DNA from: a virus
Reading direction: 5' to 3' (one strand)
Length of the DNA: 40,036 bases
IMG/VR virus record: IMGVR_UViG_2524614585_000001
Location: 1 to 40,036 of that record
The position numbers and the translations under genes were made by a program. Under the pieces are notes generated by a model that saw nothing but the letters and a program-made list of their open reading frames with translations, had not been told where the DNA came from and ran no database searches. Positions within the stretch are counted from its first letter, which is position 1. Each line of letters starts with the position of its first letter. Below are positions 1 to 40,036 of the stretch, piece by piece.

Positions 1-95
1 CCTTTAAGGGGTCAGAAAGGGGTCAAACGGGGGTCAAGACAAAAAGAAAAGGCTCAACCACTAGGGTTAAGCCTTGTTTAGCGGAGATGGAGAGA
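1..95. repeat. Terminal direct repeat, copy 1
   Basis: Compared base by base: identical to 39942..40036 and runs to the window edge. Confidence 0.97.
8..36 (+). promoter_or_regulatory. Three GGGGTCA direct repeats in 11-bp phase (8, 19, 30); fourth copy GGGGTCAGAA at 211..220. Candidate integrase arm-type sites.
   Basis: Read directly; located just 3' of int in the circular map. Confidence 0.45.
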
Positions 96-179: not shown

Positions 180-260
180 AAACATAATTTATAAATATTT
201 TATCAGATATGGGGTCAGAAAATGCTATAATTGAGTCAAAGTTATCGTGAAAGGATTAAC

Positions 261-530: not shown

Positions 531-562
531 GAATAATAAAAGGACGGCTTTCCACACCGTCC
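531..562 (-). terminator. Rho-independent terminator (minus strand)
   Basis: GGACGG-N9-CCGTCC followed by TTTTATTATT on the minus strand, about 95 nt after the YolD-like stop. Confidence 0.5.
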
Positions 563-656: not shown

Positions 657-1043
657 TTATGAATATAGGTAGTCTAGATCACTCATATAATCATACTCAT
701 CCACACTATAAATATGTTCAAATTGAACAAACATAAAACTATCCTCTTTACGCACAGTAACCACCCCGCTCCAGTCATCCATGCTCTCGATGATACATTC
801 TACCTGGTACTCGTAACCATCGTGCCAGTACCGCAGTATGACGTTTTTAGAAATGAGTTCACGCAGCTTCAATTCTAGCTCCTGCTGCAGTTCATCAGTC
901 AGATTAGGCTTAGGCACATATGCTTGCTCTACTTTCAATCTGTCCACATTCTCGTATTGCTCAGGCATCGTGGCAAATGGCGCCCACTTAATCATGCCTC
1001 TGCCTTGTGGAATATTGATATCAGCTAGTTTAGATACGTTCAT
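657..1043 (-). CDS. YolD-like protein
   Basis: IPQGRGMIKWAPFATMPEQYE is the signature block of the YolD-like family; RBS AGAGGTGA. Confidence 0.8.
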   Translation of the reverse strand: MNVSKLADINIPQGRGMIKWAPFATMPEQYENVDRLKVEQAYVPKPNLTDELQQELELKLRELISKNVILRYWHDGYEYQVECIIESMDDWSGVVTVRKEDSFMFVQFEHIYSVDEYDYMSDLDYLYS

Positions 1044-1062
1044 GGAATCACCTCTTAGGGTT

Positions 1063-1083
1063 ATTATAGCGAACGTATGTTCT
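1063..1083 (-). promoter_or_regulatory. LexA (Cheo) box AGAACATACGTTCG abutting a TATAAT -10 for the YolD-like gene
   Basis: Minus strand reads AGAACATACGTTCG-C-TATAAT, then 19 nt (including the RBS), then ATG. Fits CGAAC-N4-GTTCG. Confidence 0.65.
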
Positions 1084-1117
1084 GTATGTAAAGATAAAAA
1101 TAATCCCCTGACAAGGC

Positions 1118-1410: not shown

Positions 1411-1698
1411 TTAAATTATATTGAAAATAACAGTTATGAACCCTATAACAACTGCCACTAACGTCGTGGTAGCGAGACCCACACCCCATTTTAATGTAGA
1501 TTTTGTTTCTGAGATGTTTTTATCAATTGCCCCAAGTCGTTCATCGATTCTTTTCTCGTATTGTTTAAATGTTTCCTGCGACACATATGACATGCCGCCA
1601 CCACCTCCATTATTATTCCCTTTTTTATTGTCGCCTTCATACTTCACTTCATTAATATTGAATACTTCAGGGAATATTATTTTCGCAGAATTACTCAT
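1411..1698 (-). CDS. Tail-anchored coiled-coil membrane protein B (XhlA-like architecture)
   Basis: Gly/Asn linker, coiled-coil stretch, single C-terminal TM (GVGLATTTLVAVVIGFITVIF); RBS AAGGGGGA. Confidence 0.6.
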   Translation of the reverse strand: MSNSAKIIFPEVFNINEVKYEGDNKKGNNNGGGGGMSYVSQETFKQYEKRIDERLGAIDKNISETKSTLKWGVGLATTTLVAVVIGFITVIFNII

Positions 1699-2080
1699 TA
1701 TTATCCCCCTTTAAGCGAACTTTAAAAAATACTTCTTGTGAACTCTCTCCATCTATAATTAACTTTGCATAATGTATACCTTCATTATAGAACATAAAAT
1801 CTTGCACAATTATTTCATTAGTGAAAATATCGAAAGGTGTATTATAATAAAAATCTAAAATCGAGTGAGTACTTATTAACACTTGACCTTCAACTTCACC
1901 AATTTCCATTTCTACTTTATAACTATCAGTCTTTGTCAACTCTATTAGAGAGAAAGTCAACATAAAAGAAACTTTTTCATTTAGGGAAGTTAAACCAAAG
2001 CTGCTAATAGGTTTTTTTATAATTAATTCGTTACCACCTGTGTTTTCTTCAGATAATATAAGCCACGCAACTCTTGCCAT
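1691..2080 (-). CDS. Hypothetical protein A (129 aa), first gene of the AT-rich operon
   Basis: Only long ORF here; its stop overlaps the start of B by 8 nt (ATGAGTAA); weak RBS. Confidence 0.5.
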   Translation of the reverse strand: MARVAWLILSEENTGGNELIIKKPISSFGLTSLNEKVSFMLTFSLIELTKTDSYKVEMEIGEVEGQVLISTHSILDFYYNTPFDIFTNEIIVQDFMFYNEGIHYAKLIIDGESSQEVFFKVRLKGDNNE

Positions 2081-2172
2081 TTAATTATACCCGCTTTCAG
2101 ATTCATTTATCTAAACATTAGCAAACTATCTGAAAACTAAATAGACGGAACATGTATTCTGTTGTTAAAAAG

Positions 2173-2195
2173 TATTGCGATATTGCAATGCAATG
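2173..2195. promoter_or_regulatory. Operator-like cluster ATTGCGAT-ATTGCAAT-GCAAT in a divergent intergenic region
   Basis: Overlapping palindromic ATTGCAAT units between divergent genes A (-) and D (+). Confidence 0.35.
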
Positions 2196-2265
2196 TATGG
2201 ACTATTAAAAATATATGTAGTCAGATATGATTAAAGAGAATAAAAGAATAGGGGGGGACAAATAA

Positions 2266-2547
2266 ATGAATAGAATTCTTGTACAAAGCAAAACTAAAGA
2301 TAAAGGCTATCAAACAATTTCTAATAATGAGCGTGGCAGTAATGCAGAATTGGCTTTCAAAACTTATAAAGGATATCTGATTAAGTATAAGGATGAAATT
2401 TTAGAGGACGTTCCAGAGAGTGGAGAATATATTATGATTTCTTTTATTGGTGGCGATAAATATACAGACCATGAAATGAAAATTAAGGATATACCTAGTA
2501 CGATAATGATACCTATTAAGTACAGAGATAAATTCACTAGAGATTAA
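2266..2547 (+). CDS. Hypothetical protein D (93 aa)
   Basis: Strong RBS AGGGGGGGA 7 nt before the ATG; terminator follows. Confidence 0.6.
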   Translation: MNRILVQSKTKDKGYQTISNNERGSNAELAFKTYKGYLIKYKDEILEDVPESGEYIMISFIGGDKYTDHEMKIKDIPSTIMIPIKYRDKFTRD

Positions 2548-3755: not shown

Positions 3756-4005
3756 ACTTACGTGCTTTCTTGCGTTCCAATATTTCCTGCGCTTCTTCTG
3801 CTTCGGTCGTTAAGTTAGTGTTTCTATACGTTGAATACAGCGCTGATACGACTAACGCAACTGTGGACACAGCTTCATAAATCTGCTCGTCGCTGAACGG
3901 TAATGGATTGTACCCGAAGCTCACTAATGCTTGGTTAATCAGTAGTATGATTAGTACGATTAGGCGGGTAATACCCGCTGTTTTATTGTTCTTTGGATTC
4001 GCCAA
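3754..4005 (-). CDS. Holin (phi LC3-type, two TM segments)
   Basis: Two hydrophobic segments and a charged C-terminus; TTG at 4005 sits 6 nt after GGAGGTG. The ORF-track start at 4020 would swallow the RBS. Confidence 0.75.
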   Translation of the reverse strand: MANPKNNKTAGITRLIVLIILLINQALVSFGYNPLPFSDEQIYEAVSTVALVVSALYSTYRNTNLTTEAEEAQEILERKKARK

Positions 4006-5579: not shown

Positions 5580-5607
5580 AAAAAAGAGACCTACATGTGT
5601 AAGTCTC
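5580..5607 (-). terminator. Terminator after the Tal gene
   Basis: 9-bp stem GAGACCTAC/GTAAGTCTC (1 mismatch) plus T-run on the minus strand. Confidence 0.6.
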
Positions 5608-8600
5608 TAACCATTAATCCAGGCTCTCCCTGTTCTAATTTGCACAATGTTATTACTCGTGCCGCCAATGCGATAAAATTCGAGTTGTACCGCCAATCCC
5701 CCGTATGTTGGAGAACCTAAAGGAACGTTAATTTGAAATTCGTTTGAAGGATTATCTCGGAAAACGAGAATATCATCTTTAATCACATCTCTAATACTCG
5801 TACCAGACGGCTTATTGATGAACCGCACAACCACACCCATATACGTGGATGTTGAGGTTGAGTTAAAACGTAAGTTCGCACTGAAAGCAATAGATAAGTA
5901 CCGTCCAGCATGTTGTGTATAACCCATTTCAAATGTTTGTGTTCCAGCCATTGATGTGTTGTAGTTCCTCCCATCAAATGTGACTGTGCCATCGGTAGAC
6001 ATCCACGGTTTGAAGAACACGGGTATACCGAAGCTAGGTACACCATTCTGTACATACGGTACACCGTCCGGGCGCCATATCGTCAATTCGTGCAAGTCAA
6101 GCGTAACGGTGCTTAGTGTTGTTATGAATGCACTCTTAGCCATCATCCGCTCAAACATCGCTGTGGACGAGAATACTCTATCGAGCAACGCTGTGCCGGA
6201 TTTAATCCAATCAGCTTCTATTGTATTCACAGTGAGTAATCTCGAACGAATGTGCGAAGCGTTTAAGTCTACGACATTTAACGTTAATGCGTGCATTTCG
6301 TTGACGAAGTGCGTTTTAGTAATGAGTTCATCTATCCTCGCCGAAGTGGCAAACAACTTATCCACCAATGCCGTACCCACTTGAATATGGTCGGAAGTGA
6401 TAACGTTTGCTGTTAGTTGGTTTGCGAATAACCTTGCGAAGTTACCTTCGATAGCATCGACGGCTAATGATGTGATTTGACCTTTCGCATTCAAGTTGCC
6501 AGTTAAGTTGAAATTACTAACTACAGCATCCAGTGCATCAGGGCTACCTCGGAGTACACTACTTACATCTTCCGCGCCTATTCTCATAGCGCCCAATTGC
6601 CAATAGTCAGGAGTCAGTTTGAAGTCTGTTTGTTTGAGTGTTTTATCATCAACTTCTTGTACTTTGAATGAAATTTGATTTGCTAATTGCTCAACTTGGC
6701 TGACTGCATTGAGCATTGGTGTAGCTTCGCTCCCTCGTTCTAACTTGGCATATATACGACGGTTCGGATTAGTTAAACGAGCAAGACGAACTTCTGTGCC
6801 GTTGTAACTAATCGCACTTAATAATATGTGAGTGCTTGGCGTTGTGAAAGTATTAGTTTCTCCACGTCTTACAGTGATCTGATTACCATATGATGGCTCT
6901 CCTGTTGAATCTGTAAAGTTAATCAACCAGTAATCAATGTTACTATTATCTGGACTATCATCACTGAATGTGTAGGTGACACCACTTGACACCCATATCG
7001 CATTCTCACGTCTTATTCTGATATTACCGGGCAATATATTTCCATTACCTGTACTCCAATACCTCCCCACTTCCCAAGCTTCTTCGGCAATAGGTAGAAG
7101 GTTCGCCTCTATTTCAGACACGTCGTTTAACCATAGCTTACGCTCGTACGCATCTACGGTCTCAAGCACACTCTGCCCATTTGTTGCTTGCCAATCTTCC
7201 ACACGTTGTAAAATAAGTTCGTTGCCTTCGACTGTTTGTTCCACTGATTTTATATATTGATTCAACGTATCAGTTTCTGCATCATACAGGGACTTTGTGA
7301 CGAACTCGCTATAACCATCTTCCAGATTAGTAATCCGCCGAGTGACTTCTTCAATCGACTGCGTCGCATCTTGAGGATGATAGACCCAATCGGTATTGTT
7401 GCTGCCCGTTAAATAAACTAATTTAATATCAATACGTTCTCTCGTAACATCACCGGAAGCGAAGTTTGTACCGATTTGAAACTGACCTGAAACTGTTTCA
7501 CTCGGAATGACAGTTCCATAAGTCCGCCTCCATTTTCCATCGGTGTGTAAATCCGAGAGTGGTTTATCTATATCATCAATGAGATTGTAATAGCCGTCCA
7601 TATCTCCGATGGCCAGCCTATCCAACTCTTTAGCGCCATATGAACGATAATCTACAGCAACAATATATTTTTTCCCTTTTTCTAACGTCACGCCTTCCGT
7701 GAAATGCACACGCGGTTCATTAAATCTTTCGGAATATAGAGTAACAAATTTTATATTTCCTTCTTCCTGAAGTTCCGCGCCTGAATACAGATGAAACATA
7801 TCAGGTTCATCAAAGCGAGTCCCTCGGATCATATTGAAAGTGTTGGAATCGACCTTCCGAAGGCGCTCTTCAAAATTCTGTGATATATCTAAGAATCTTT
7901 GGTCTAATGTGATACTCCGAGATGTGCCGAGAAATTCATCAATATCCATTACGTTTTCTTTCAAGCCGTCAATCAACGTTTGGTGTCCGCTTGTGACCGT
8001 TTCTAAGTCTGTCCGTACTTCGTCCGCTTTTTCCTGCGCTTTCTGTTCTGCGTATTCTTTCGTCTGCGTGATTTCTGTATTTAGGTTATCCGTAAATTCT
8101 GTGCGAGTGCCTTCGATGAGATTTGTCATATTCTCACGGTCAGCTTCGATTTCTGCTTGTTGGTCGATTAAATTCTGCTCGAATTGATTCATTGCAGCAG
8201 TAAACTGGTTGTCTATCCAAGCGTTCCACTCATTTTTAATACGAGTGATTCTGTCGCTAGTGTCTCTTCCTAACCGCTTAATTTGAGCATTGATACGTTT
8301 CATCTGTCGATTCTCAAAGTGATGGAAGTCACCTAACGTGAGTTTGCTAAGCTCCGGATCAAGTAGATTATATTCAATCTTCTCAACACGAGCGCGCTTA
8401 ATAATGCCCGCGGCTTTATACAGAACACCGACTGTATCGCCAAGTTTAAGATTACCAATCCGTGCCACTTCTGTTTTCCACGTGGCTTTAGGCAGACAGT
8501 TTTCAAGTAGCCAGTAGTACGTTGCATCAGCTAATTTCTTTTTATCTTCAATATCCTCAAATACAACTTCCGGTGCAATTCGGGGTTTCACGACACCGTT

Positions 8601-9410
8601 TTCAATAAAGCCGTATTCTGCAGTTGCGGAAGGCAATTCAATATAATTTTGCCCAACTGGTTTAGTAATACCGTCCTTACTCCAAGCGATGTCTCCGAAC
8701 TCTAAACGTGGACCAAAGCCATCACCAGATTCTTCACCGCGTCCACGACCCACCGCAGCAGTATAGACTTCGGATTCATCTTGTTCTTGCGTAAGAGTCA
8801 GCACATTCGTACCATAAGCAAAACGCTGACCGGTCCATAGTCCGATTCGATTTTTCATGATGATGTTCTTACTAATGATTTTACGACCGTCAAACTGCAA
8901 CTCATAGTCAAATTCAACACCATATGTGGAAATTAAATCGTTCCAAGCATCCGTGACACTCGCACGATAAAAGTTAATGTCGTGTCTGTCAGTCACATCG
9001 TAATCAATGATAGTCCAACCTATTGAGTTAAACGCAACATCAGCAGGAGCTTTTGCTTCGCTATCCCTAAAACGTCTGTCATGAATATTCCCCATCGCTT
9101 TTGCTTCATCGAAGAAGATATGCACACCGTCGAATAGTAGAAACTCGCCTTGCTTATTTGCAGTAATGTTGCGTGAGTATATTTTATACAGTTGGAATCT
9201 GTTCTTATCATCGTAGTGTCCGGCAAATTCTGCTTTACCGACGGATTTCTGATAGTTGTATTGCGTACCTTTCTTATCTTCATAAAAAATAGGCACTTCA
9301 ACGGCGAGTTGGTAAATGCCGTTGCGTACCTTGGTTTGTGTTGCGCTATTTATATGCTTTCTTGGGATAATCTTTTGTAGTTTCTTCGTTCTGTCGAATA
9401 AATAAATCAT
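5607..9410 (-). CDS. Tail-associated protein Tal / minor structural protein with prophage-tail endopeptidase-type N-terminus and long receptor-binding C-terminus
   Basis: 1267 aa directly after Dit; N-terminus MIYLFDR... typical of the family; central coiled coil. Confidence 0.75.
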   Translation of the reverse strand: MIYLFDRTKKLQKIIPRKHINSATQTKVRNGIYQLAVEVPIFYEDKKGTQYNYQKSVGKAEFAGHYDDKNRFQLYKIYSRNITANKQGEFLLFDGVHIFFDEAKAMGNIHDRRFRDSEAKAPADVAFNSIGWTIIDYDVTDRHDINFYRASVTDAWNDLISTYGVEFDYELQFDGRKIISKNIIMKNRIGLWTGQRFAYGTNVLTLTQEQDESEVYTAAVGRGRGEESGDGFGPRLEFGDIAWSKDGITKPVGQNYIELPSATAEYGFIENGVVKPRIAPEVVFEDIEDKKKLADATYYWLLENCLPKATWKTEVARIGNLKLGDTVGVLYKAAGIIKRARVEKIEYNLLDPELSKLTLGDFHHFENRQMKRINAQIKRLGRDTSDRITRIKNEWNAWIDNQFTAAMNQFEQNLIDQQAEIEADRENMTNLIEGTRTEFTDNLNTEITQTKEYAEQKAQEKADEVRTDLETVTSGHQTLIDGLKENVMDIDEFLGTSRSITLDQRFLDISQNFEERLRKVDSNTFNMIRGTRFDEPDMFHLYSGAELQEEGNIKFVTLYSERFNEPRVHFTEGVTLEKGKKYIVAVDYRSYGAKELDRLAIGDMDGYYNLIDDIDKPLSDLHTDGKWRRTYGTVIPSETVSGQFQIGTNFASGDVTRERIDIKLVYLTGSNNTDWVYHPQDATQSIEEVTRRITNLEDGYSEFVTKSLYDAETDTLNQYIKSVEQTVEGNELILQRVEDWQATNGQSVLETVDAYERKLWLNDVSEIEANLLPIAEEAWEVGRYWSTGNGNILPGNIRIRRENAIWVSSGVTYTFSDDSPDNSNIDYWLINFTDSTGEPSYGNQITVRRGETNTFTTPSTHILLSAISYNGTEVRLARLTNPNRRIYAKLERGSEATPMLNAVSQVEQLANQISFKVQEVDDKTLKQTDFKLTPDYWQLGAMRIGAEDVSSVLRGSPDALDAVVSNFNLTGNLNAKGQITSLAVDAIEGNFARLFANQLTANVITSDHIQVGTALVDKLFATSARIDELITKTHFVNEMHALTLNVVDLNASHIRSRLLTVNTIEADWIKSGTALLDRVFSSTAMFERMMAKSAFITTLSTVTLDLHELTIWRPDGVPYVQNGVPSFGIPVFFKPWMSTDGTVTFDGRNYNTSMAGTQTFEMGYTQHAGRYLSIAFSANLRFNSTSTSTYMGVVVRFINKPSGTSIRDVIKDDILVFRDNPSNEFQINVPLGSPTYGGLAVQLEFYRIGGTSNNIVQIRTGRAWING

Positions 9411-35929: not shown

Positions 35930-36697
35930 TTAAGAAACCTCCTGTTCAATCATTGGTAAGATATTGTTTTGCTTGAGTAATTCATACAGGAATAATCTTC
36001 CGTTCTGTGTCCACTTGGTATGCATTCTTACCGATGTACTACCATCTTTATGTTCAATCTCTGTCGTGTCCGAATGTGTTAAACCTTTACTGTGGTGTTT
36101 CGAGTAAAGTAACCATTGACCAGATTGTTTGTATTGAACTTTTAGATCGTGCAGTAACTTGTTGAGCGCCTGCGCTGACATTCCGTAATCTTTTGCGATT
36201 TGCCCGATTGTAACTAAGCTCTTGTTTTGTAAAATGTTGTCGTAGTAGCTTGCTTTAGGCTTCATTTCACTAATGCGTTGCCTGCTGATTTCAGTTTCGA
36301 GTCTTAATCTTTCGTTCTCTTCCTCTTTAGCTACTAATTCGAGTAACGCTTCTTTATAAGTAGTCGGAAGTTTGAGCGTTTGATTCTTGATGTGGTCTTC
36401 CATTTCGTTAAATTTGTTGATGTAATTCATTTTGAAATCGTTGTGCCCTTGAATATTGAACATGTAAAGTGTGAATCCATCTTTAGTAAGTAGGTACTCT
36501 GTTCTTAGCTCACCTTTTTTATCTCGGTATTCATTATCAATAATCAACGAACGAACATTATCGTCGGTTAAAATTCTTCTAATCTGGTTTATAACGTCGC
36601 CATGTCTCTTTCCGATTTGCTCCGCTACCACTCTGCTGCTTACGACAAGACCGAAATCTTCTTTGTTTTCAATTTGTATTTCTGCTAATTGATTCAT
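35930..36697 (-). CDS. Antirepressor (Rha-like N-terminus, KilAC/ANT C-terminus)
   Basis: VVSSRVVAEQIGKRHGDVINQIRR and SLVTIGQIAKDYGMSAQALNKLLHD. Confidence 0.7.
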   Translation of the reverse strand: MNQLAEIQIENKEDFGLVVSSRVVAEQIGKRHGDVINQIRRILTDDNVRSLIIDNEYRDKKGELRTEYLLTKDGFTLYMFNIQGHNDFKMNYINKFNEMEDHIKNQTLKLPTTYKEALLELVAKEEENERLRLETEISRQRISEMKPKASYYDNILQNKSLVTIGQIAKDYGMSAQALNKLLHDLKVQYKQSGQWLLYSKHHSKGLTHSDTTEIEHKDGSTSVRMHTKWTQNGRLFLYELLKQNNILPMIEQEVS

Positions 36698-36711
36698 GTC
36701 ATTCCTCCTAA

Positions 36712-36729
36712 TTAACGCAAAATGCGTAA
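36712..36729. promoter_or_regulatory. Operator-type inverted repeat TAACGCA-N4-GCGTAA between cro and ant
   Basis: Same T(R)ACGCA-N4-GCGTAA pattern as the site inside the cro promoter spacer. Confidence 0.5.
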
Positions 36730-36731
36730 AT

Positions 36732-36941
36732 TTAAACTAAAATTTTTTCATTTGGAAATAACTCTTCCAGTGGTTCGTTAAGAATTTCTGACAACTTATA
36801 TGCCATGTCTAACTTCGGCACGTAATTCTTATCCTTTTCGATGCTGTTGTAGTAGGACGATGTTTTGTACCCTAACTTCAATGCAACGTGTGTCTGCGTG
36901 ATACCTTTAGACTTGCGTATTTCTTCTAGTCTATGAGCCAT
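36732..36941 (-). CDS. cro: Cro-like XRE HTH regulator
   Basis: ITQTHVALKLGYKTSSYYNSIE; divergent from the cI-like gene. Confidence 0.75.
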   Translation of the reverse strand: MAHRLEEIRKSKGITQTHVALKLGYKTSSYYNSIEKDKNYVPKLDMAYKLSEILNEPLEELFPNEKILV

Positions 36942-37067
36942 TTAAACCCCTCCTTCCATTTAGTCGTCCATATCATGAATGATTCATCGCAATGGCTTAA
37001 TGTATTGATGCGCGGCTCATATCATCGCTCACTCTCGCTAGTCATTCATCATATCGCCGACTAAATT

Positions 37068-37174
37068 TTAATGCGTAATGCGTAACTCTTAATTAGCATT
37101 ATACTGACGCATTTCGCGTAAGTCAACACTTTTATTACGCTTTTTGAAAAATATATTTCTCTTAACGCATTAAA
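37068..37174. promoter_or_regulatory. Operator array: at least six GCGTAA/TTACGC half-sites
   Basis: TAATGCGTAATGCGTAA, TGACGCATTTCGCGTAA, TTACGC (37135), TAACGC (37163). Confidence 0.6.
37098..37126 (-). promoter_or_regulatory. Early lytic promoter: TTGACT, 17 nt, TATAAT
   Basis: Minus strand TTGACTtacgcgaaatgcgtcagTATAAT, with an operator filling the spacer. Confidence 0.75.
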
Positions 37175-37213
37175 AGGCTACAATTAGCATAAATTCACAT
37201 ATGAAAGAGAGCA

Positions 37214-37570
37214 ATGAATATGGATGTAAACCGATTAATCTCATTAAGGGAACGCAAAGGCTGGTCTAAGACTGAAGCAGCTAGACGTTTAAATATAGCT
37301 ACGAGCACTTACTCCGGCTATGAATACGGTCATCGTAAGCCTGATAATGATATGTTAGTAGAAATATCCGAGCTCTACGATGTGACTACTGATTACTTAT
37401 TAGGTAAAAGCGATGTTGCCAATGATCCATCCGACGACTTCGATGCTTTCATGTTTGAGGATAAAGAAGCGTTTGATGCCCTGCCTGATGATGTAAAACA
37501 GGAACTGATTAAAGAGATAAACGATAAGATTGAGTTTTTAGCATACAAGCAGAAGAATAAAGATAAGTAA
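37214..37570 (+). CDS. cI: CI-like / ImmR-like XRE repressor without an S24 autocleavage domain
   Basis: N-terminal HTH (WSKTEAARRLNIATSTYSGYE) plus an approximately 50-aa acidic helical tail; divergent from cro. Confidence 0.75.
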   Translation: MNMDVNRLISLRERKGWSKTEAARRLNIATSTYSGYEYGHRKPDNDMLVEISELYDVTTDYLLGKSDVANDPSDDFDAFMFEDKEAFDALPDDVKQELIKEINDKIEFLAYKQKNKDK

Positions 37571-37635
37571 TTGGGGCTATGCCCTATTATTTATAGATTG
37601 CAATTACATATATTACAATTAGAGGGGGATTTTGA

Positions 37636-38310
37636 ATGTCAGAAGAAGAACGTAAGCAACAGAAGAAACGGGGCGGTTGTCTCAAATGGGTATTAATCAT
37701 TTTCGGTGTACTCATTCTATTAGGCGCTTGTGGTGCGCTATTAGGTGGTGGGGATAACGCTACTAATACGACTCCAGAAGAAGCTACCAAAGAATCAGAA
37801 GAGCCTGCAGAAGAAGTGGAAACGGAAAGCGGCGAACAAGAAGAATCTGCAGAAGAAGATGAAGAGGTAGTTGAAGAGGATGAAGCTGTTGAAACAGTTG
37901 GCATCGGCGAAACATTAACTGTTGATGATATTGATTTTACTGTAAATGATATGTATCAACAAGATAGCGTAGGTGACGTTATAGCTTCAAATGCAAACGA
38001 TACTTATCTAATCTTAGATGTCTCCGTGACAAACAACCAAAATGAGGCAGTAACGCTCATGGATAGTTACTTCAAGATAGTCGATGGCGAAACAGTATTT
38101 GAACCAGACGGCACTGCATCAATGACAGCTAACCAAGCGATTAGCCCAGATAATTTAGGACTACTCGCAGAAGAAATAAATCCTGGATCTTCACGAGATG
38201 CATTAATTGTGTATGATATAACTCAAAGTGTCATAGACAGTCAAAGCAAGCAATTGCAAGTTCAGTCCGGAATGTTCGGTACTGAAACAGGAATCATAAA
38301 TCTACAATAA
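37636..38310 (+). CDS. DUF4352-like lipoprotein with an acidic linker
   Basis: Signal plus lipobox LLGAC, E-rich linker, beta-rich C-domain (TYLILDVSVTNNQNEAV). Confidence 0.7.
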   Translation: MSEEERKQQKKRGGCLKWVLIIFGVLILLGACGALLGGGDNATNTTPEEATKESEEPAEEVETESGEQEESAEEDEEVVEEDEAVETVGIGETLTVDDIDFTVNDMYQQDSVGDVIASNANDTYLILDVSVTNNQNEAVTLMDSYFKIVDGETVFEPDGTASMTANQAISPDNLGLLAEEINPGSSRDALIVYDITQSVIDSQSKQLQVQSGMFGTETGIINLQ

Positions 38311-38321
38311 GCAATACACCA

Positions 38322-38369
38322 GCTGACCACTGGAAGAATGAACATATTCAAGGTGGTCAGCACTTTTTT
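38322..38369 (+). terminator. Terminator after the lipoprotein gene
   Basis: GCTGACCAC-N22-GTGGTCAGC then ACTTTTTT. Confidence 0.6.
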
Positions 38370-38380
38370 AAACTTCAAAC

Positions 38381-38394
38381 CGAACATACGTTCT
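38381..38394 (+). promoter_or_regulatory. LexA (Cheo) box CGAACATACGTTCT
   Basis: Fits CGAAC-N4-GTTCG except the last base. The 12-nt core is identical to the box at 1071..1082 (reverse complement). Lies 20 nt before the ImmA-like ATG. Confidence 0.6.
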
Positions 38395-38413
38395 AAAATA
38401 AAGGGGTTTTCAC

Positions 38414-38863
38414 ATGAGAATTGAAGATAAAGTAAATGAAATCGTAGAATTATCAATATTAGATGTAATGGATTTATCAGTAGAACATCTCTCTTATATG
38501 TTCGATGTCCATATTTTATATAATCATCAATCTAACTTTTATGTTCAAAAAGCCGGTGTCGATATTATCGGTTTAAAATTTGATAAGCGACATGAGATGT
38601 TTAAAGCGTTCTGTCATGAAGCCGGTCATATGTTTTTACATGCGACCAATCAAAAGGCGATGCCGCAAACGTTTAACCAGCTGCAGGAAGCTGAAGCTGA
38701 GAAGTTCGCCCTACTCTTACAATTACCGGAGAATTTAATCATTAAGAATAAATGGTATGAACCAATCGATTTAATGAAGGAATTTAACGTATCTGAGGAG
38801 ATTGCGATTAAAAGATTACAGATGTTAAAGAGTCGCGCAGAAGTCTTGCAGCTGCAATTTTAG
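38414..38863 (+). CDS. ImmA/IrrE-family zinc metallopeptidase
   Basis: HEAGH (HEXXH) motif in a 149-aa protein within the repressor-integrase operon. Confidence 0.75.
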   Translation: MRIEDKVNEIVELSILDVMDLSVEHLSYMFDVHILYNHQSNFYVQKAGVDIIGLKFDKRHEMFKAFCHEAGHMFLHATNQKAMPQTFNQLQEAEAEKFALLLQLPENLIIKNKWYEPIDLMKEFNVSEEIAIKRLQMLKSRAEVLQLQF

Positions 38864-38874
38864 GAGGGAATACA

Positions 38875-39948
38875 ATGCCTGTATATGAAGCGAGTAATGG
38901 TACATGGTATGTGAAATTAAGTTATATCGATGAGTTCGGGGATAGAAAGTATAAGACAAAGCGGAATCTCCCGACACGGGGTAAAGCTAGAAAGTGGGAA
39001 GATGAGTTTTTCATCAAGCTGCAGGAAGGAGAATCGTCAGACTACCTATCATTTACAGTCCTGTCTGAACATTATATTGAGTGGTATTCCAAGCGGAGAA
39101 AACCATCCAGTATTAAGACGATAAAGAACTATGTCAATAATCATCTGGATCCGTACTTTAAGAAGATGAACGTCTACCGTATGAGTACGAAAGATATATT
39201 GAATTTTCACGACCACATGACAAATAAGATATTCAGAGATAAGCCGTTGAAGAAAGGTTATATCCAGGATGTACACACGGCGCTGAGCAGCATCTTAAAT
39301 CACGGGGTAAAATTCTATGATTTGAAGAAGAATGTTGCAGCACTGGCAGGGAATATCGAAAATGACGAGACACCGAGTTGGGATTACTGGACCTTGAATG
39401 AATTTGAATACTTCTATAATCAAGTTGACGACATTCTAATTAAGACATACTACCGCCTGCTCTTCTTTAGTGGACTGCGCCACGGAGAACTTCGCGCACT
39501 TACCTGGAATGATGTGAACCTAATTGATGGCTATGTCGATATTAACAAGACGAATTACAACGGCAAGGTGCATACACCAAAAACTAAAACATCTATCCGA
39601 AAAGTATATATCCCAAAACATGTGATTAATTTATTACATGAATATAAAATATGGTACCAAAGTGAAAAGGAATATAAAGATGATTATGTGGTGTTTGGTA
39701 ATTTCTATAAAGCATATGGGGAAAGTACAATACCGAAAAGGTACGATAAGATAATGGATGAAATAGATTTAAAAAGAATTAAGACACATGAGTTTCGACA
39801 TTCACATGCTTCTGATTGTATTAACCGGTTAAGGATGGATCGCGAAACTTTAGCAAAACGCTTAGGACATTCTTCATCAATTACAATCGAAAAAATATAT
39901 GGTCACTTGTATCCGAGCACAGAAAAAGATGCCATTTTAGACCTTTAA
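38875..39948 (+). CDS. int: Tyrosine integrase
   Basis: LRHGELRAL, HEFRHSHAS, LGHSS...YGHLY catalytic blocks. Confidence 0.9.
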   Translation: MPVYEASNGTWYVKLSYIDEFGDRKYKTKRNLPTRGKARKWEDEFFIKLQEGESSDYLSFTVLSEHYIEWYSKRRKPSSIKTIKNYVNNHLDPYFKKMNVYRMSTKDILNFHDHMTNKIFRDKPLKKGYIQDVHTALSSILNHGVKFYDLKKNVAALAGNIENDETPSWDYWTLNEFEYFYNQVDDILIKTYYRLLFFSGLRHGELRALTWNDVNLIDGYVDINKTNYNGKVHTPKTKTSIRKVYIPKHVINLLHEYKIWYQSEKEYKDDYVVFGNFYKAYGESTIPKRYDKIMDEIDLKRIKTHEFRHSHASDCINRLRMDRETLAKRLGHSSSITIEKIYGHLYPSTEKDAILDL

Positions 39949-40036
39949 GGGGTCAGAAAGGGGTCAAACGGGGGTCAAGACAAAAAGAAAAGGCTCAACC
40001 ACTAGGGTTAAGCCTTGTTTAGCGGAGATGGAGAGA
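39942..40036. repeat. Terminal direct repeat, copy 2 (starts 7 nt before the end of int)
   Basis: Identical to 1..95. Confidence 0.97.
39990..40016 (+). terminator. Hairpin after int (also present at 49..75)
   Basis: AAGGCTCAACC-actag-GGTTAAGCCTT (1 mismatch), weak T-tail. Confidence 0.45.

What the first reader, a model, noticed from the sequence alone, without database searches (positions are those of the whole stretch)
37214..39948. LexA box in front of an ImmA-type protease and integrase, beside a repressor with no autocleavage domain: candidate SOS-gated protease anti-repression switch
Seen: CGAACATACGTTCT (38381..38394) lies in the only gap between the lipoprotein terminator and the HEAGH metallopeptidase gene, 20 nt before its ATG. 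The integrase gene starts 11 nt after the peptidase stop.

Seen: the cI-like protein (118 aa) has an XRE HTH and a short acidic tail, but no Ser/Lys S24 domain.

Established: Firmicute LexA binds CGAAC-N4-GTTCG. ImmA-type proteases cleave ImmR-type repressors, with ICEBs1 as the paradigm. In other phages (186, Gifsy) LexA controls small antirepressors.

Inference: induction here may work by LexA-derepressed synthesis of the protease that destroys CI, co-expressed with int. To my knowledge this combination has not been described as a circuit.
Basis: partly seen in the sequence, partly recalled or inferred. Interest (0 to 1): 0.72.

Follow-up and report, generated by a model that had tools for sequence, protein, structure and literature searches.

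The report
LexA-boxed ImmA protease–integrase operon
A temperate phage of Jeotgalicoccus keeps its repressor-cutting protease and integrase behind a terminator and a conserved host LexA (SOS) operator, so DNA damage probably triggers induction by letting the protease be made; the same wiring is present, but uninterpreted, in the classic Bacillus PBSX element.

Summary
CGAACATACGTTCT (38381..38394) lies 19 nt before the ATG of a Peptidase_M78 (ImmA/IrrE) gene. The integrase gene follows 11 nt after that gene's stop. The 118-aa cI has only an XRE HTH.

In the window alone the box is not statistically compelling, but comparison is decisive. In 15 further distinct prophage loci of Jeotgalicoccus and Salinicoccus (ImmA identity 97 to 48%), the same cassette precedes immA: terminator hairpin, T-run, TAnnnT, then CGAAC-N4-GTTC. 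The specified box bases are invariant, while immA third codon positions are only 45% identical.

The repressors have shuffled HTH domains but a conserved tail, (F/L)MF-x-(D/N)KE(A/G)FD. This tail aligns with the F95/M96 cleavage site of ICEBs1 ImmR and tracks ImmA divergence.

The wiring has a precedent. In PBSX, xre is followed by a gap, AGAACATACGTTCG and then xkdA, which is Peptidase_M78 and 28% identical to this ImmA. xkdA is listed in the LexA/SOS regulon. I found no paper that treats this as a protease-based switch.

Verdict: a probable SOS-gated ImmR/ImmA-type switch. It is a variant of a known kind and is not unprecedented. The promoter is weak or uncertain, and LexA binding and cleavage are untested.

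The parts
38381..38394 (.). Cheo-type LexA box CGAACATACGTTCT (13/14 to CGAAC-N4-GTTCG), 19 nt before the immA ATG
   Evidence: CGAAC and GTTC are invariant in 16 distinct loci while N4 varies (ATAC, ATAT, ACAC). The core GAACATACGTTC is identical to the box before PBSX xkdA.
38322..38369 (+). Intrinsic-terminator hairpin GCTGACCAC-loop-GTGGTCAGC (38322..38361) plus T6 run (38364..38369). It ends the DUF4352 moron unit and insulates immA-int.
   Evidence: RNAfold gives -20.1 kcal/mol here and -12.3 to -20.1 in 16 loci. The 3' arm is 100% identical, the 5' arm 96%, and the loop is 10-22 nt and variable. The pattern has 0 chance expectation in the window.
38369..38374 (+). Candidate -10 element TAAACT. 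It would put the transcription start at about 38381, the first bases of the LexA box. The -35 is poor (TTCAAG, 16-nt spacer).
   Evidence: TAnnnT is kept at this position in 15 of 16 loci (TAAACT, TAAAAT, TAGAAT, TAAAGT, TACAAT, TACCAT) at a fixed distance from the box. It is the most recurrent PWM candidate but scores low. It is not found by the 9/12 scanner. Inference only.
38400..38406 (+). Shine-Dalgarno AAAGGGG of immA
   Evidence: Direct reading. An AGGGG or GGAGG element is present in all loci 7-10 nt before the ATG.
38414..38863 (+). immA: ImmA/IrrE-family (Peptidase_M78, COG2856) metallopeptidase, 149 aa, with H68-E69-x-x-H72 and E92. It is the XkdA-like subfamily.
   Evidence: PF06114 E 6.9e-10 and phrog_87 metallo-protease. 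H68, E69, H72 and E92 are invariant in 21 homologues. The AF2 model has pLDDT 89.4. Best PDB folds are IrrE 3dti/3dte and PprI-ssDNA 8sln, TM 0.62-0.64, prob 1.00. It is 28% identical to PBSX XkdA, E 7e-11. The exact sequence equals WP_026859389.1 of Jeotgalicoccus psychrophilus.
38875..39948 (+). int: tyrosine integrase, starting 11 nt after the immA stop and probably co-transcribed with it
   Evidence: PF00589, PF14659 and PF14657. In related loci immA is always followed within a few nt by a recombinase gene, of differing families.
37214..37570 (+). cI: ImmR/Xre-type repressor with an XRE HTH and a conserved acidic C-terminal tail, and no S24 domain
   Evidence: HTH_3 E 2.3e-14 only. It is 44% identical to ICEBs1 ImmR over the HTH and 35% identical to PBSX Xre over 117 aa, E 2e-14.
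37445..37459 (+). Codons for A78-F79-M80-F81-E82, the predicted ImmA cleavage region in the acidic linker
   Evidence: (F/L)MF-x-(D/N)KE(A/G)FD is conserved in 16 repressors whose HTH domains differ. It aligns with LLF95|M96NDGEFD of ImmR. The cleavage site F95/M96 is taken from PMC6868357. The register is uncertain by one or two residues.
37572..37586 (+). Terminator-like hairpin directly after cI
   Evidence: 6-bp stem with 4 GC pairs, then a T-rich tail.
37636..38310 (+). DUF4352 lipoprotein moron (lipobox LLGAC), possibly superinfection exclusion
   Evidence: PF11611 E 4e-19. phrog_806, and weakly phrog_4980 superinfection exclusion. The cargo between cI and the cassette varies among loci, from 0 to about 1.4 kb.
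36732..36941 (-). cro-like HTH gene, divergent from cI and the first gene of the lytic operon
   Evidence: HTH_3 E 3.9e-11.
37098..37126 (-). Near-consensus lytic promoter TTGACT-17-TATAAT, overlapped by a cI operator repeat
   Evidence: 11/12 match.
37068..37172 (.). Operator-like ACGCA-N3-(T/C)GCGT and TTACGC repeats in the cI-cro intergenic region. A further copy lies at 36714..36731.
   Evidence: families D1, I2, I3, I10-I12. None occurs near immA.
35930..36697 (-). Ant-type protein (pRha + KilAC) in the lytic operon, with no LexA box
   Evidence: PF03374 E 4e-37 and PF09669. There are no boxes here.
1063..1092 (-). Second SOS unit of the phage. The promoter TTTACA-18-TATAAT carries the exact Cheo box CGAACGTATGTTCT (1070..1083) in its spacer and drives a YolD-like gene (1043..657).
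   Evidence: 11/12 promoter match. PF08863 YolD E 3.8e-14. LexA binding to the SPbeta yolD promoter is reported by Au et al., as cited in PMC8270828.
39949..39981 (+). Three direct GGGGTCA(A/G)A repeats just after int (a fourth at 211), probably Int arm-type sites of attP
   Evidence: Inference only.

Best explanation
This is the lysogeny switch of a circular, roughly 39.9-kb temperate phage of Jeotgalicoccus psychrophilus. It is built on an ImmR/ImmA pair, more exactly a PBSX Xre/XkdA-type pair.

**Repression.** cI is an XRE-HTH repressor without an autocleavage domain. It holds the divergent cro/ant/early operon shut through ACGCA-N3-TGCGT-type operators.

**Insulation.** immA and int form their own unit. 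Two intrinsic terminators cut it off from cI transcription. It begins with a weak promoter-like element (TAAACT -10) whose predicted start falls on a Cheo-type LexA operator.

**Induction.**
- In a lysogen, host LexA keeps ImmA and Int low.
- DNA damage leads to RecA-stimulated LexA self-cleavage, and ImmA and Int are then synthesised.
- ImmA cuts cI in its conserved acidic tail, around F79-M80-F81. This separates the HTH from the C-terminal helix.
- The lytic promoter opens, and Int is present for excision.

**Shown here.**
- The anatomy.
- The family and fold of ImmA.
- Selective conservation of the box and the cassette.
- The modular, ImmA-linked repressor tail.
- Identical wiring in PBSX.

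**Inferred.**
- LexA binding.
- The promoter and its start site.
- Proteolysis of cI.
- That ImmA abundance is the limiting signal.
For: (1) Box conservation. All 15 other distinct Jeotgalicoccus/Salinicoccus loci carry CGAAC-N4-GTTC(T/C) 15-24 nt before the ImmA ATG.
- Mean pairwise identity is 92% for the box, with all specified bases invariant, and 100% for the 3' hairpin arm.
- By contrast it is 67% for immA and 45% for immA third codon positions.

(2) Fixed geometry. The hairpin-to-box spacing is 19-20 nt, while the box-to-ATG distance and the loop vary.

(3) The box appears only when immA is separated from upstream genes.
- Loci with a gap and hairpin have the box: 16 Jeotgalicoccus/Salinicoccus loci, S. 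pseudintermedius phage DS3 with CGAACACACATTCG, S. nepalensis, and three PBSX-like elements.
- The box is absent where immA abuts the upstream gene: ICEBs1, three Staphylococcus prophages and Mammaliicoccus.

(4) The same phage uses an exact Cheo box inside a near-consensus promoter of a YolD-like gene, a classic SOS gene type (PMC8270828).

(5) ImmA has the IrrE/PprI fold and invariant HExxH...E.

(6) The repressor tail motif aligns with the ImmR F95/M96 site (PMC6868357). Tail identity tracks ImmA identity (Spearman 0.75) far better than HTH identity does (0.26).

(7) xkdA, the closest characterised-context homologue, has the same box. It is listed as lexA/SOS and was 17.8-fold induced in B. 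pumilus.

(8) ImmA here is only the catalytic domain (149 aa), with no extra sensor domain such as the GAF-like domain of IrrE. This fits control by abundance.
Against: - No sigma-A promoter of 9/12 or better lies in the 103-nt gap. The best candidate has a poor -35 and low PWM scores in all loci. Transcription initiation there is therefore unproven.
- The box could act on read-through transcripts, or mainly on int.
- In the window alone the box count is not significant.
- The covariation of tail and ImmA is not corrected for phylogeny or linkage.
[quoted passage not shown] Relatives CapP and PprI respond to ssDNA. Synthesis alone may therefore not be sufficient.
- A LexA-repressed int raises the question of how Int is supplied for integration after infection.
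- The LexA of the host genus and its operator have not been characterised.
Confidence: 0.6

Rival explanations
1. Two-key (AND) gate. LexA only controls the supply of ImmA and Int. ImmA must additionally be activated by RecA filaments or ssDNA before it cuts cI, so LexA loss alone does not induce.
For: - ICEBs1 ImmA is described as activated by the RecA-dependent response or by RapI (PMC11841131; PMC13492144).
- The M78 relatives CapP and PprI are ssDNA-stimulated or ssDNA-bound (PMC13228613; PDB 8sln).
- In Listeria, MpaR-dependent excision needs LexA cleavage under mitomycin C but not inside macrophages (PMC6872733).
Against: - The 149-aa ImmA has no domain beyond the catalytic one.
- A strongly conserved operator placed exactly where immA has been uncoupled from the repressor gene suggests that expression level is the selected control point.
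- IrrE cleaves DdrO when the two are simply co-expressed in E. coli (PMC7907104).
Confidence: 0.22
2. The box is chiefly an SOS control of the integrase (excision and integration timing). ImmA is a passenger or has another role, for example a non-proteolytic, Rir-like antirepressor that binds cI without cutting it.
For: - int is always directly downstream of immA.
- SOS control of integrases is known for integrons (PMC3108266).
- The COG2856 protein Rir of phage TP-J34 was reported to act without detectable proteolysis (PMC6868357).
Against: - PBSX-like elements keep the box before xkdA although no integrase follows.
- HExxH and the downstream Glu are invariant in 21 homologues.
- The integrase family changes among loci while ImmA, the repressor tail and the box stay together.
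Confidence: 0.1
3. The conserved block is not a LexA operator. The hairpin-to-box segment is a recombination linker or module junction kept by gene conversion among related phages, or it is bound by another factor. The resemblance to a Cheo box would then be incidental.
For: - The hairpin stem is invariant in sequence, which a terminator does not require.
- A second hairpin copy flanks an inserted segment in L018.
- The box count in the window alone is not significant.
Against: - Within the block, only the positions that the LexA consensus leaves free vary.
- Unrelated sequence contexts carry a Cheo box at the same place without the CTGACCAC hairpin. These are PBSX-like elements, S. pseudintermedius phage DS3 and S. 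nepalensis.
- xkdA is in the LexA/SOS regulon.
Confidence: 0.06

Closest known systems
PBSX xre-xkdA (Bacillus subtilis group defective prophage)
   Same: - The gene order is an XRE repressor without S24, then a non-coding gap with a hairpin and T-run, then a Cheo box 15 nt before the start of a Peptidase_M78 gene.
- The core box is identical, GAACATACGTTC.
- ImmA is 28% identical to XkdA (E 7e-11), and cI is 35% identical to Xre over its full length, including the MF-acidic tail.
- xkdA is listed as a lexA/SOS gene (PMC3896406).
   Different: - PBSX has no integrase after xkdA, and XkdA is longer (198 aa).
- PBSX lacks the invariant CTGACCAC/GTGGTCAG hairpin.
- No paper found here shows XkdA cutting Xre. 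The cited proposal for PBSX is RecA-stimulated repressor autocleavage (PMC8270828).
ICEBs1 ImmR/ImmA/Int
   Same: - It pairs an XRE repressor with an M78 protease that cleaves it at F95/M96 in an acidic loop.
- int follows immA, and the transfer or lytic operon is divergent.
- The repressor HTH is 44% identical.
   Different: - immR and immA overlap and form one autoregulated operon.
- There is no terminator and no GAAC-N4-GTTC anywhere in 5.4 kb.
- ImmA is activated by RecA or RapI rather than being known to be LexA-regulated.
- The ImmA proteins are only marginally similar (E 0.004).
Listeria monocin CI-like/MpaR metalloprotease anti-repressor
   Same: A separate metalloprotease cleaves S24-less CI-like repressors. 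Induction by mitomycin C requires cleavable LexA (PMC6872733).
   Different: mpaR is described as autoregulated by its cognate repressor in a repressor-protease gene pair. No LexA operator at mpaR is reported in the passages read. It can also be activated independently of SOS in macrophages.
LexA-controlled antirepressors (coliphage 186 Tum; S. aureus phi11 Gp07; LexA/gp7 of GIL01)
   Same: The logic is the same. Host LexA, not the phage repressor, senses damage, and its loss releases a phage factor that inactivates the maintenance repressor (PMC12637031; PMC13492144).
   Different: Those effectors are small binding proteins, or LexA itself acts as repressor. Here the effector is a catalytic protease that would act irreversibly and substoichiometrically, and it is co-expressed with int.
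Deinococcus IrrE(PprI)/DdrO and CBASS CapP/CapH
   Same: ImmA has the same M78 protease fold (TM 0.62-0.64 to IrrE/PprI). These proteases also cleave the C-terminal part of an XRE repressor in response to DNA damage.
   Different: - IrrE is constitutively expressed, SOS-independent, and has an extra GAF-like domain.
- CapP is stimulated by ssDNA.
- Neither is reported as LexA-gated.

Membership tests
ImmR/ImmA (COG2856/XRE) repressor-protease switches | Protease of the Peptidase_M78 / IrrE fold with HExxH and a downstream Glu ligand | tested here: met
   PF06114 E 6.9e-10. H68, E69, H72 and E92 are invariant. The AF2 model has pLDDT 89.4, and IrrE/PprI are the top PDB folds.
ImmR/ImmA (COG2856/XRE) repressor-protease switches | XRE-HTH repressor lacking an S24 autopeptidase, encoded upstream on the same strand and divergent from the lytic or transfer operon | tested here: met
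ImmR/ImmA (COG2856/XRE) repressor-protease switches | Cleavage-site-like motif in an acidic C-terminal linker of the repressor (ImmR F95/M96) | tested here: met
   The conserved (F/L)MF-x-(D/N)KE(A/G)FD aligns with LLFMNDGEFD of ImmR (site from PMC6868357). The alignment register is uncertain by 1-2 residues.
ImmR/ImmA (COG2856/XRE) repressor-protease switches | Site-specific proteolysis of the repressor by the protease | not testable with these tools
   This needs co-expression or in-vitro cleavage.
ImmR/ImmA (COG2856/XRE) repressor-protease switches | immR-immA-int transcribed as one repressor-autoregulated operon (ICEBs1 arrangement) | tested here: not met
   Two terminator hairpins and a moron separate cI from immA, and no cI operator repeat lies near immA. 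In ICEBs1, immR and immA overlap.
PBSX Xre/XkdA-type LexA-boxed module | Cheo box within about 25 nt upstream of the M78 gene, in a non-coding gap downstream of the XRE repressor gene | tested here: met
   Window. PBSX-like elements.
PBSX Xre/XkdA-type LexA-boxed module | Sequence homology of both partners to Xre and XkdA | tested here: met
   cI versus Xre is 35% identical, E 2e-14. ImmA versus XkdA is 28% identical, E 7e-11.
PBSX Xre/XkdA-type LexA-boxed module | Damage-inducible, LexA-dependent transcription of the protease gene | not testable with these tools
   This is documented only for xkdA, in a regulon listing with 17.8-fold induction in B. pumilus (PMC3896406). The primary paper (Au et al. 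2005) is not held in the library.
LexA (Cheo-box) regulon operators of Bacillota | Match to CGAAC-N4-GTTCG | tested here: met
   The match is 13/14, with an exact GAAC-N4-GTTC core. The consensus is from established knowledge (Cheo et al. 1991; Au et al. 2005), recalled from memory.
LexA (Cheo-box) regulon operators of Bacillota | Overlap with, or close proximity to, a functional promoter | tested here: inconclusive
   Only a weak candidate exists, the TAAACT -10 six nt upstream, conserved as TAnnnT in 15 of 16 loci. The scanner finds none. The YolD-gene box in the same phage sits in a clear promoter.
LexA (Cheo-box) regulon operators of Bacillota | Phylogenetic conservation of the site before orthologous genes | tested here: met
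   The site is present in 16 of 16 distinct Jeotgalicoccus/Salinicoccus loci, in 2 Staphylococcus loci and in 3 Bacillus elements.
LexA (Cheo-box) regulon operators of Bacillota | LexA binding | not testable with these tools
   This needs EMSA, footprinting or ChIP.
Lambda-type S24 autocleaving CI repressors | C-terminal Peptidase_S24 domain with a Ser/Lys dyad | tested here: not met
   The protein is 118 aa with no S24 hit at E<=0.01.

The most novel reading that the evidence does not exclude
A LexA, then M78-protease, then XRE-repressor transcriptional cascade may be the general way in which S24-less repressors of many Bacillales prophages sense DNA damage. PBSX, whose induction mechanism is still attributed to repressor autocleavage, would be included. 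Protease abundance would be the trigger. The 'terminator, weak promoter, Cheo box' cassette would be a portable insulator that converts an autoregulated immR-immA-int operon (ICEBs1 type) into an SOS-gated one.
Probability: 0.45. Interest if true: 0.6.

Novelty: new variant of a known kind. Interest (0 to 1): 0.45.

Why it matters
How DNA damage reaches ImmA-type anti-repressors is still unresolved. [quoted passage not shown] For PBSX the cited proposal is autocleavage of a repressor that has no autopeptidase domain.

A conserved LexA operator sits exactly where the protease gene has been uncoupled from the repressor gene. It recurs in Jeotgalicoccus, Salinicoccus, some Staphylococcus phages and PBSX-like elements. 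This gives a simple hypothesis that can be tested genetically, and the test could be run in B. subtilis with existing tools.

A catalytic, LexA-gated antirepressor would also predict sharper and less reversible induction than stoichiometric antirepressors give. It is relevant to annotating prophage inducibility in Staphylococcaceae.

Tried and rejected
- **Megablast of 36700..40036 against 50,697 phage records** gave no match. tblastn of ImmA found only two unannotated S. pseudintermedius phages.
- **A profile search of PDB sequences** found nothing. Only the fold search found IrrE/PprI.
- **Rfam with E-value thresholds** on 36500..40036 gave only a sub-threshold chance hit inside the DUF4352 gene. 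No tRNA was found.
- **A DNA-pattern scan of IMG/VR** for GTGGTCAG-N(10-24)-CGAAC-N4-GTTC returned 70 loci. Only 5 have the full hairpin, and all 5 were contigs already found through ImmA. The cassette therefore does not occur in front of other genes in that collection.
- **A DS3-ImmA scan of IMG/VR** found nothing.
- **The sigma-A promoter search in the gap** gave no 9/12 match. A crude PWM gave only low scores. I rejected TAAAAT (38394..38399) as the -10, because its start site would fall inside the Shine-Dalgarno and because it is absent from L013-L015.
- **The hairpin arms as Int arm-type sites.** I considered this because they resemble the GGGGTCAG repeats. I rejected it because the arms are invariant in loci with unrelated recombinases.
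- **The third box-like site** (6243..6256, two departures in effect, inside the 1267-aa ORF 5607..9410) was dismissed as chance.
- **Primary papers not held.** Bose 2008, Bose & Grossman 2011 and Au 2005 are not in the library. Statements from them are marked as recalled or are taken from citing papers.

Full report
**1. What is in the sequence**

The window is a complete 40,036-bp contig of Jeotgalicoccus psychrophilus. Its ImmA sequence is exactly WP_026859389.1, and the longest contig carrying that protein is 40,036 bp. The first 95 bases repeat at the end, 1..95 = 39942..40036. It is therefore a circular or terminally redundant phage genome of about 39.9 kb.

The region in question reads as follows on the + strand:
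- cI (37214..37570, HTH_3 only), followed by a small hairpin (37572..37586).
- A DUF4352 lipoprotein gene (37636..38310).
- The hairpin GCTGACCAC...GTGGTCAGC with a T6 run (38322..38369; -20.1 kcal/mol).
- TAAACT (38369..38374).
- CGAACATACGTTCT (38381..38394).
- The Shine-Dalgarno AAAGGGG (38400..38406).
- immA (38414..38863; PF06114 E 6.9e-10; HEAGH at residues 68-72).
- An 11-nt gap and then int (38875..39948; PF00589).

Divergently transcribed genes lie on the other strand:
- A cro-like gene (36732..36941), behind a TTGACT-17-TATAAT promoter (37126..37098).
- An Ant-type gene (35930..36697).

Operator-like ACGCA-N3-TGCGT repeats fill the cI-cro gap. None occurs near immA.

**2. Is the box more than chance?**

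Within the window alone it is not. Exact GAAC-N4-GTTC occurs twice against 0.55 expected, and 11 of 100 shuffles reach two.

Both exact sites are nevertheless intergenic and lie immediately upstream of a gene. The second site (1070..1083) sits in the 18-nt spacer of an 11/12 promoter, TTTACA-18-TATAAT (1092..1063). That promoter drives a YolD-like gene (PF08863). yolD is a gene type whose SPbeta promoter binds LexA in vitro, according to Au et al. as cited in PMC8270828. The phage therefore carries at least one textbook SOS promoter.

**3. Comparative evidence**

I searched genome and viral collections with an ImmA alignment. This gave 15 further distinct loci from Jeotgalicoccus and Salinicoccus, with ImmA identity from 97% down to 48%.

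All of them carry CGAAC-N4-GTTC(T/C) 15-24 nt before the ImmA ATG. The cassette has a rigid geometry:
- The arms are CTGACCA(C/T) and GTGGTCAG.
- The loop is 10-22 nt and variable.
- Exactly 19-20 nt separate the 3' arm from the box. This stretch contains T6-7 and a TAnnnT hexamer in 15 of 16 loci.
- A variable stretch follows and holds the Shine-Dalgarno.

| Segment | Mean pairwise identity |
|---|---|
| 3' hairpin arm | 100% |
| 5' hairpin arm | 96% |
| Box (all specified bases invariant; only N4 and the last base vary) | 92% |
| immA coding sequence | 67% |
| immA third codon positions | 45% |

This is the signature of purifying selection on an operator.

The cargo between cI and the cassette varies from nothing (L013-L015) to about 1.4 kb, and the recombinase downstream belongs to different families. 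What travels together is the repressor tail, the cassette and immA.

**4. Beyond the two genera**

Loci that have the box:
- Staphylococcus pseudintermedius phage DS3 (ImmA 41% identical). It has cI-like, terminator, then CGAACACACATTCG 16 nt before the ATG.
- A S. nepalensis prophage. It has a terminator plus GGAACTGACGTTCT.

Loci that lack the box, in each of which immA directly abuts the upstream gene:
- Three other Staphylococcus prophages and a Mammaliicoccus prophage.
- ICEBs1, where immR and immA overlap and there is no GAAC-N4-GTTC in 5.4 kb.

In the sample examined, the box is present whenever immA has been cut off from upstream transcription and absent whenever it has not.

**5. Prior art: PBSX**

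I recovered the PBSX regulatory locus through Xre. There xre is followed by a 161-nt gap that ends in AGAACATACGTTCG. This box lies 15 nt before the start of xkdA, and xkdA hits PF06114 Peptidase_M78.

The box is kept as AGAACATTCGTTCG in two more distant PBSX-like elements. At least one of them has a GC hairpin and T-run just upstream.

The homology is as follows:
- The window's ImmA is closer to XkdA (28% identity, E 7e-11) than to ICEBs1 ImmA (E 0.004).
- cI aligns with Xre over its whole length (35% identity, E 2e-14), including an MF-acidic tail.

xkdA is listed under lexA/SOS and was 17.8-fold induced by peroxide in B. pumilus (PMC3896406). I recall that Au et al. 2005 identified the LexA site, but that paper is not held in the library.

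Among 23 held papers that mention xkdA, none that I read treats it as an ImmA-type protease. A 2021 review still gives RecA-stimulated repressor autocleavage as the proposed PBSX mechanism (PMC8270828). The layout is therefore not new, but its interpretation as a circuit appears to be unpublished in the searchable literature.

**6. The protease and its likely substrate**

The AlphaFold model of ImmA is confident (pLDDT 89.4). Its best PDB matches are IrrE (3dti, 3dte) and PprI bound to ssDNA (8sln), with TM 0.62-0.64 and probability 1.00. H68, E69, H72 and E92 are invariant in 21 homologues.

The 16 repressors have HTH domains that are shuffled between loci. All end in a conserved tail, (F/L)MF-x-(D/N)KE(A/G)FD-x-L(P/S)-acidic-helix.

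I added the verified ICEBs1 ImmR sequence (exact look-up). This aligned its LLF95|M96NDGEFD with the window's AFMFEDKEAFD. The F95/M96 cleavage site in an acidic loop is taken from PMC6868357.

Tail identity correlates with ImmA identity (Spearman 0.75), whereas HTH identity correlates only weakly with it (0.26). This was not corrected for phylogeny.

This is the pattern expected if the tail is the protease's recognition module. Cleavage itself is inferred.

**7. Mechanism proposed**

LexA bound at 38381..38394 blocks a weak promoter whose -10 is TAAACT and whose start would fall on the box. Alternatively it blocks residual read-through.

After DNA damage, LexA self-cleaves and ImmA and Int are made. 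ImmA cuts cI near F79-M80-F81, the cro/ant/early operon is derepressed, and Int is available for excision.

The weak points are these:
- No good sigma-A promoter is detectable.
- It is unknown whether ImmA also needs RecA or ssDNA activation, as is described for ICEBs1, CapP and PprI.
- It is unclear how Int is supplied at infection if LexA represses it.

I put about 0.6 on the circuit as stated, about 0.22 on a two-key version, and the rest on int-centred or non-LexA readings.

**8. Novelty and score**

This is an ImmR/ImmA-family switch with a different input wiring. The protease-integrase unit is transcriptionally insulated and placed under a LexA operator. The same wiring exists in PBSX, where the LexA control is recorded but the protease logic is not.

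I classify it as a new variant of a known kind. A specialist would not be astonished. However, the conserved cassette turns an open question, how damage reaches ImmA-type anti-repressors and how PBSX Xre is inactivated, into a direct experiment. Interest is 0.45.

Noticed in passing
window 1..95 and 39942..40036: The two ends of the window are identical over 95 nt. The window equals a whole 40,036-bp contig of Jeotgalicoccus psychrophilus. It is therefore a circular, or circularly assembled, phage genome rather than an integrated prophage with host flanks. No tRNA gene is present.
   Followed up: partly
window 657..1092 (- strand): A YolD-like gene (1043..657, PF08863) lies behind a near-consensus promoter TTTACA-18-TATAAT (1092..1063). 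An exact Cheo box CGAACGTATGTTCT (1070..1083) sits in the promoter's spacer, and a terminator lies at 562..542. This is a second, canonical SOS-controlled unit (moron) next to the attachment region.
   Followed up: yes
window 39949..39981 and 211..218: Three direct GGGGTCA(A/G)A repeats at 11-nt spacing lie immediately after the int stop, with a fourth copy at 211. They are probably integrase arm-type sites of attP.
   Followed up: no
window 38323..38360; L018 3438..3463 and 3920..3947: The stem of the terminator hairpin (CTGACCAY/GTGGTCAG) is invariant in sequence across 16 loci of two genera, although a terminator needs only structure. In L018 a second copy without the T-run and box follows the DUF4352 gene, about 460 nt upstream of the boxed copy, as if a segment had been inserted at the hairpin. 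This may be a module junction or recombination point, or an additional binding site. It is unexplained.
   Followed up: partly
window 36714..36731, 37068..37085, 37105..37120, 37162..37172: Repeated ACGCA-N3-(T/C)GCGT and TTACGC motifs lie in the cI-cro intergenic region and between cro and ant. They are probably cI/Cro operators. One overlaps the 11/12 lytic promoter at 37126..37098.
   Followed up: partly
L097, L098, L099, L100 (Staphylococcus prophages), about 1690..2470: These prophages carry two tandem XRE repressor genes upstream of immA-int. Each has the hMF-x-DK-x-FD tail, which suggests that one ImmA protease serves two substrates. Only L100 has a terminator and a Cheo box before immA.
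   Followed up: partly
PBSX xre-xkdA intergenic region (L096 2843..3003): A published Hfq co-immunoprecipitation study lists an 87-nt RNA peak 'between xre-xkdA' as one of the most enriched (ratio 150; PMC3574147). The gap that holds the LexA box is therefore transcribed as an xre 3' UTR or a small RNA, which hints at an RNA-level layer.
   Followed up: no
window 37636..38310: The moron between cI and the cassette is a DUF4352 lipoprotein (lipobox LLGAC) with a weak match to a superinfection-exclusion PHROG. The cargo at this position differs among related phages.
   Followed up: partly
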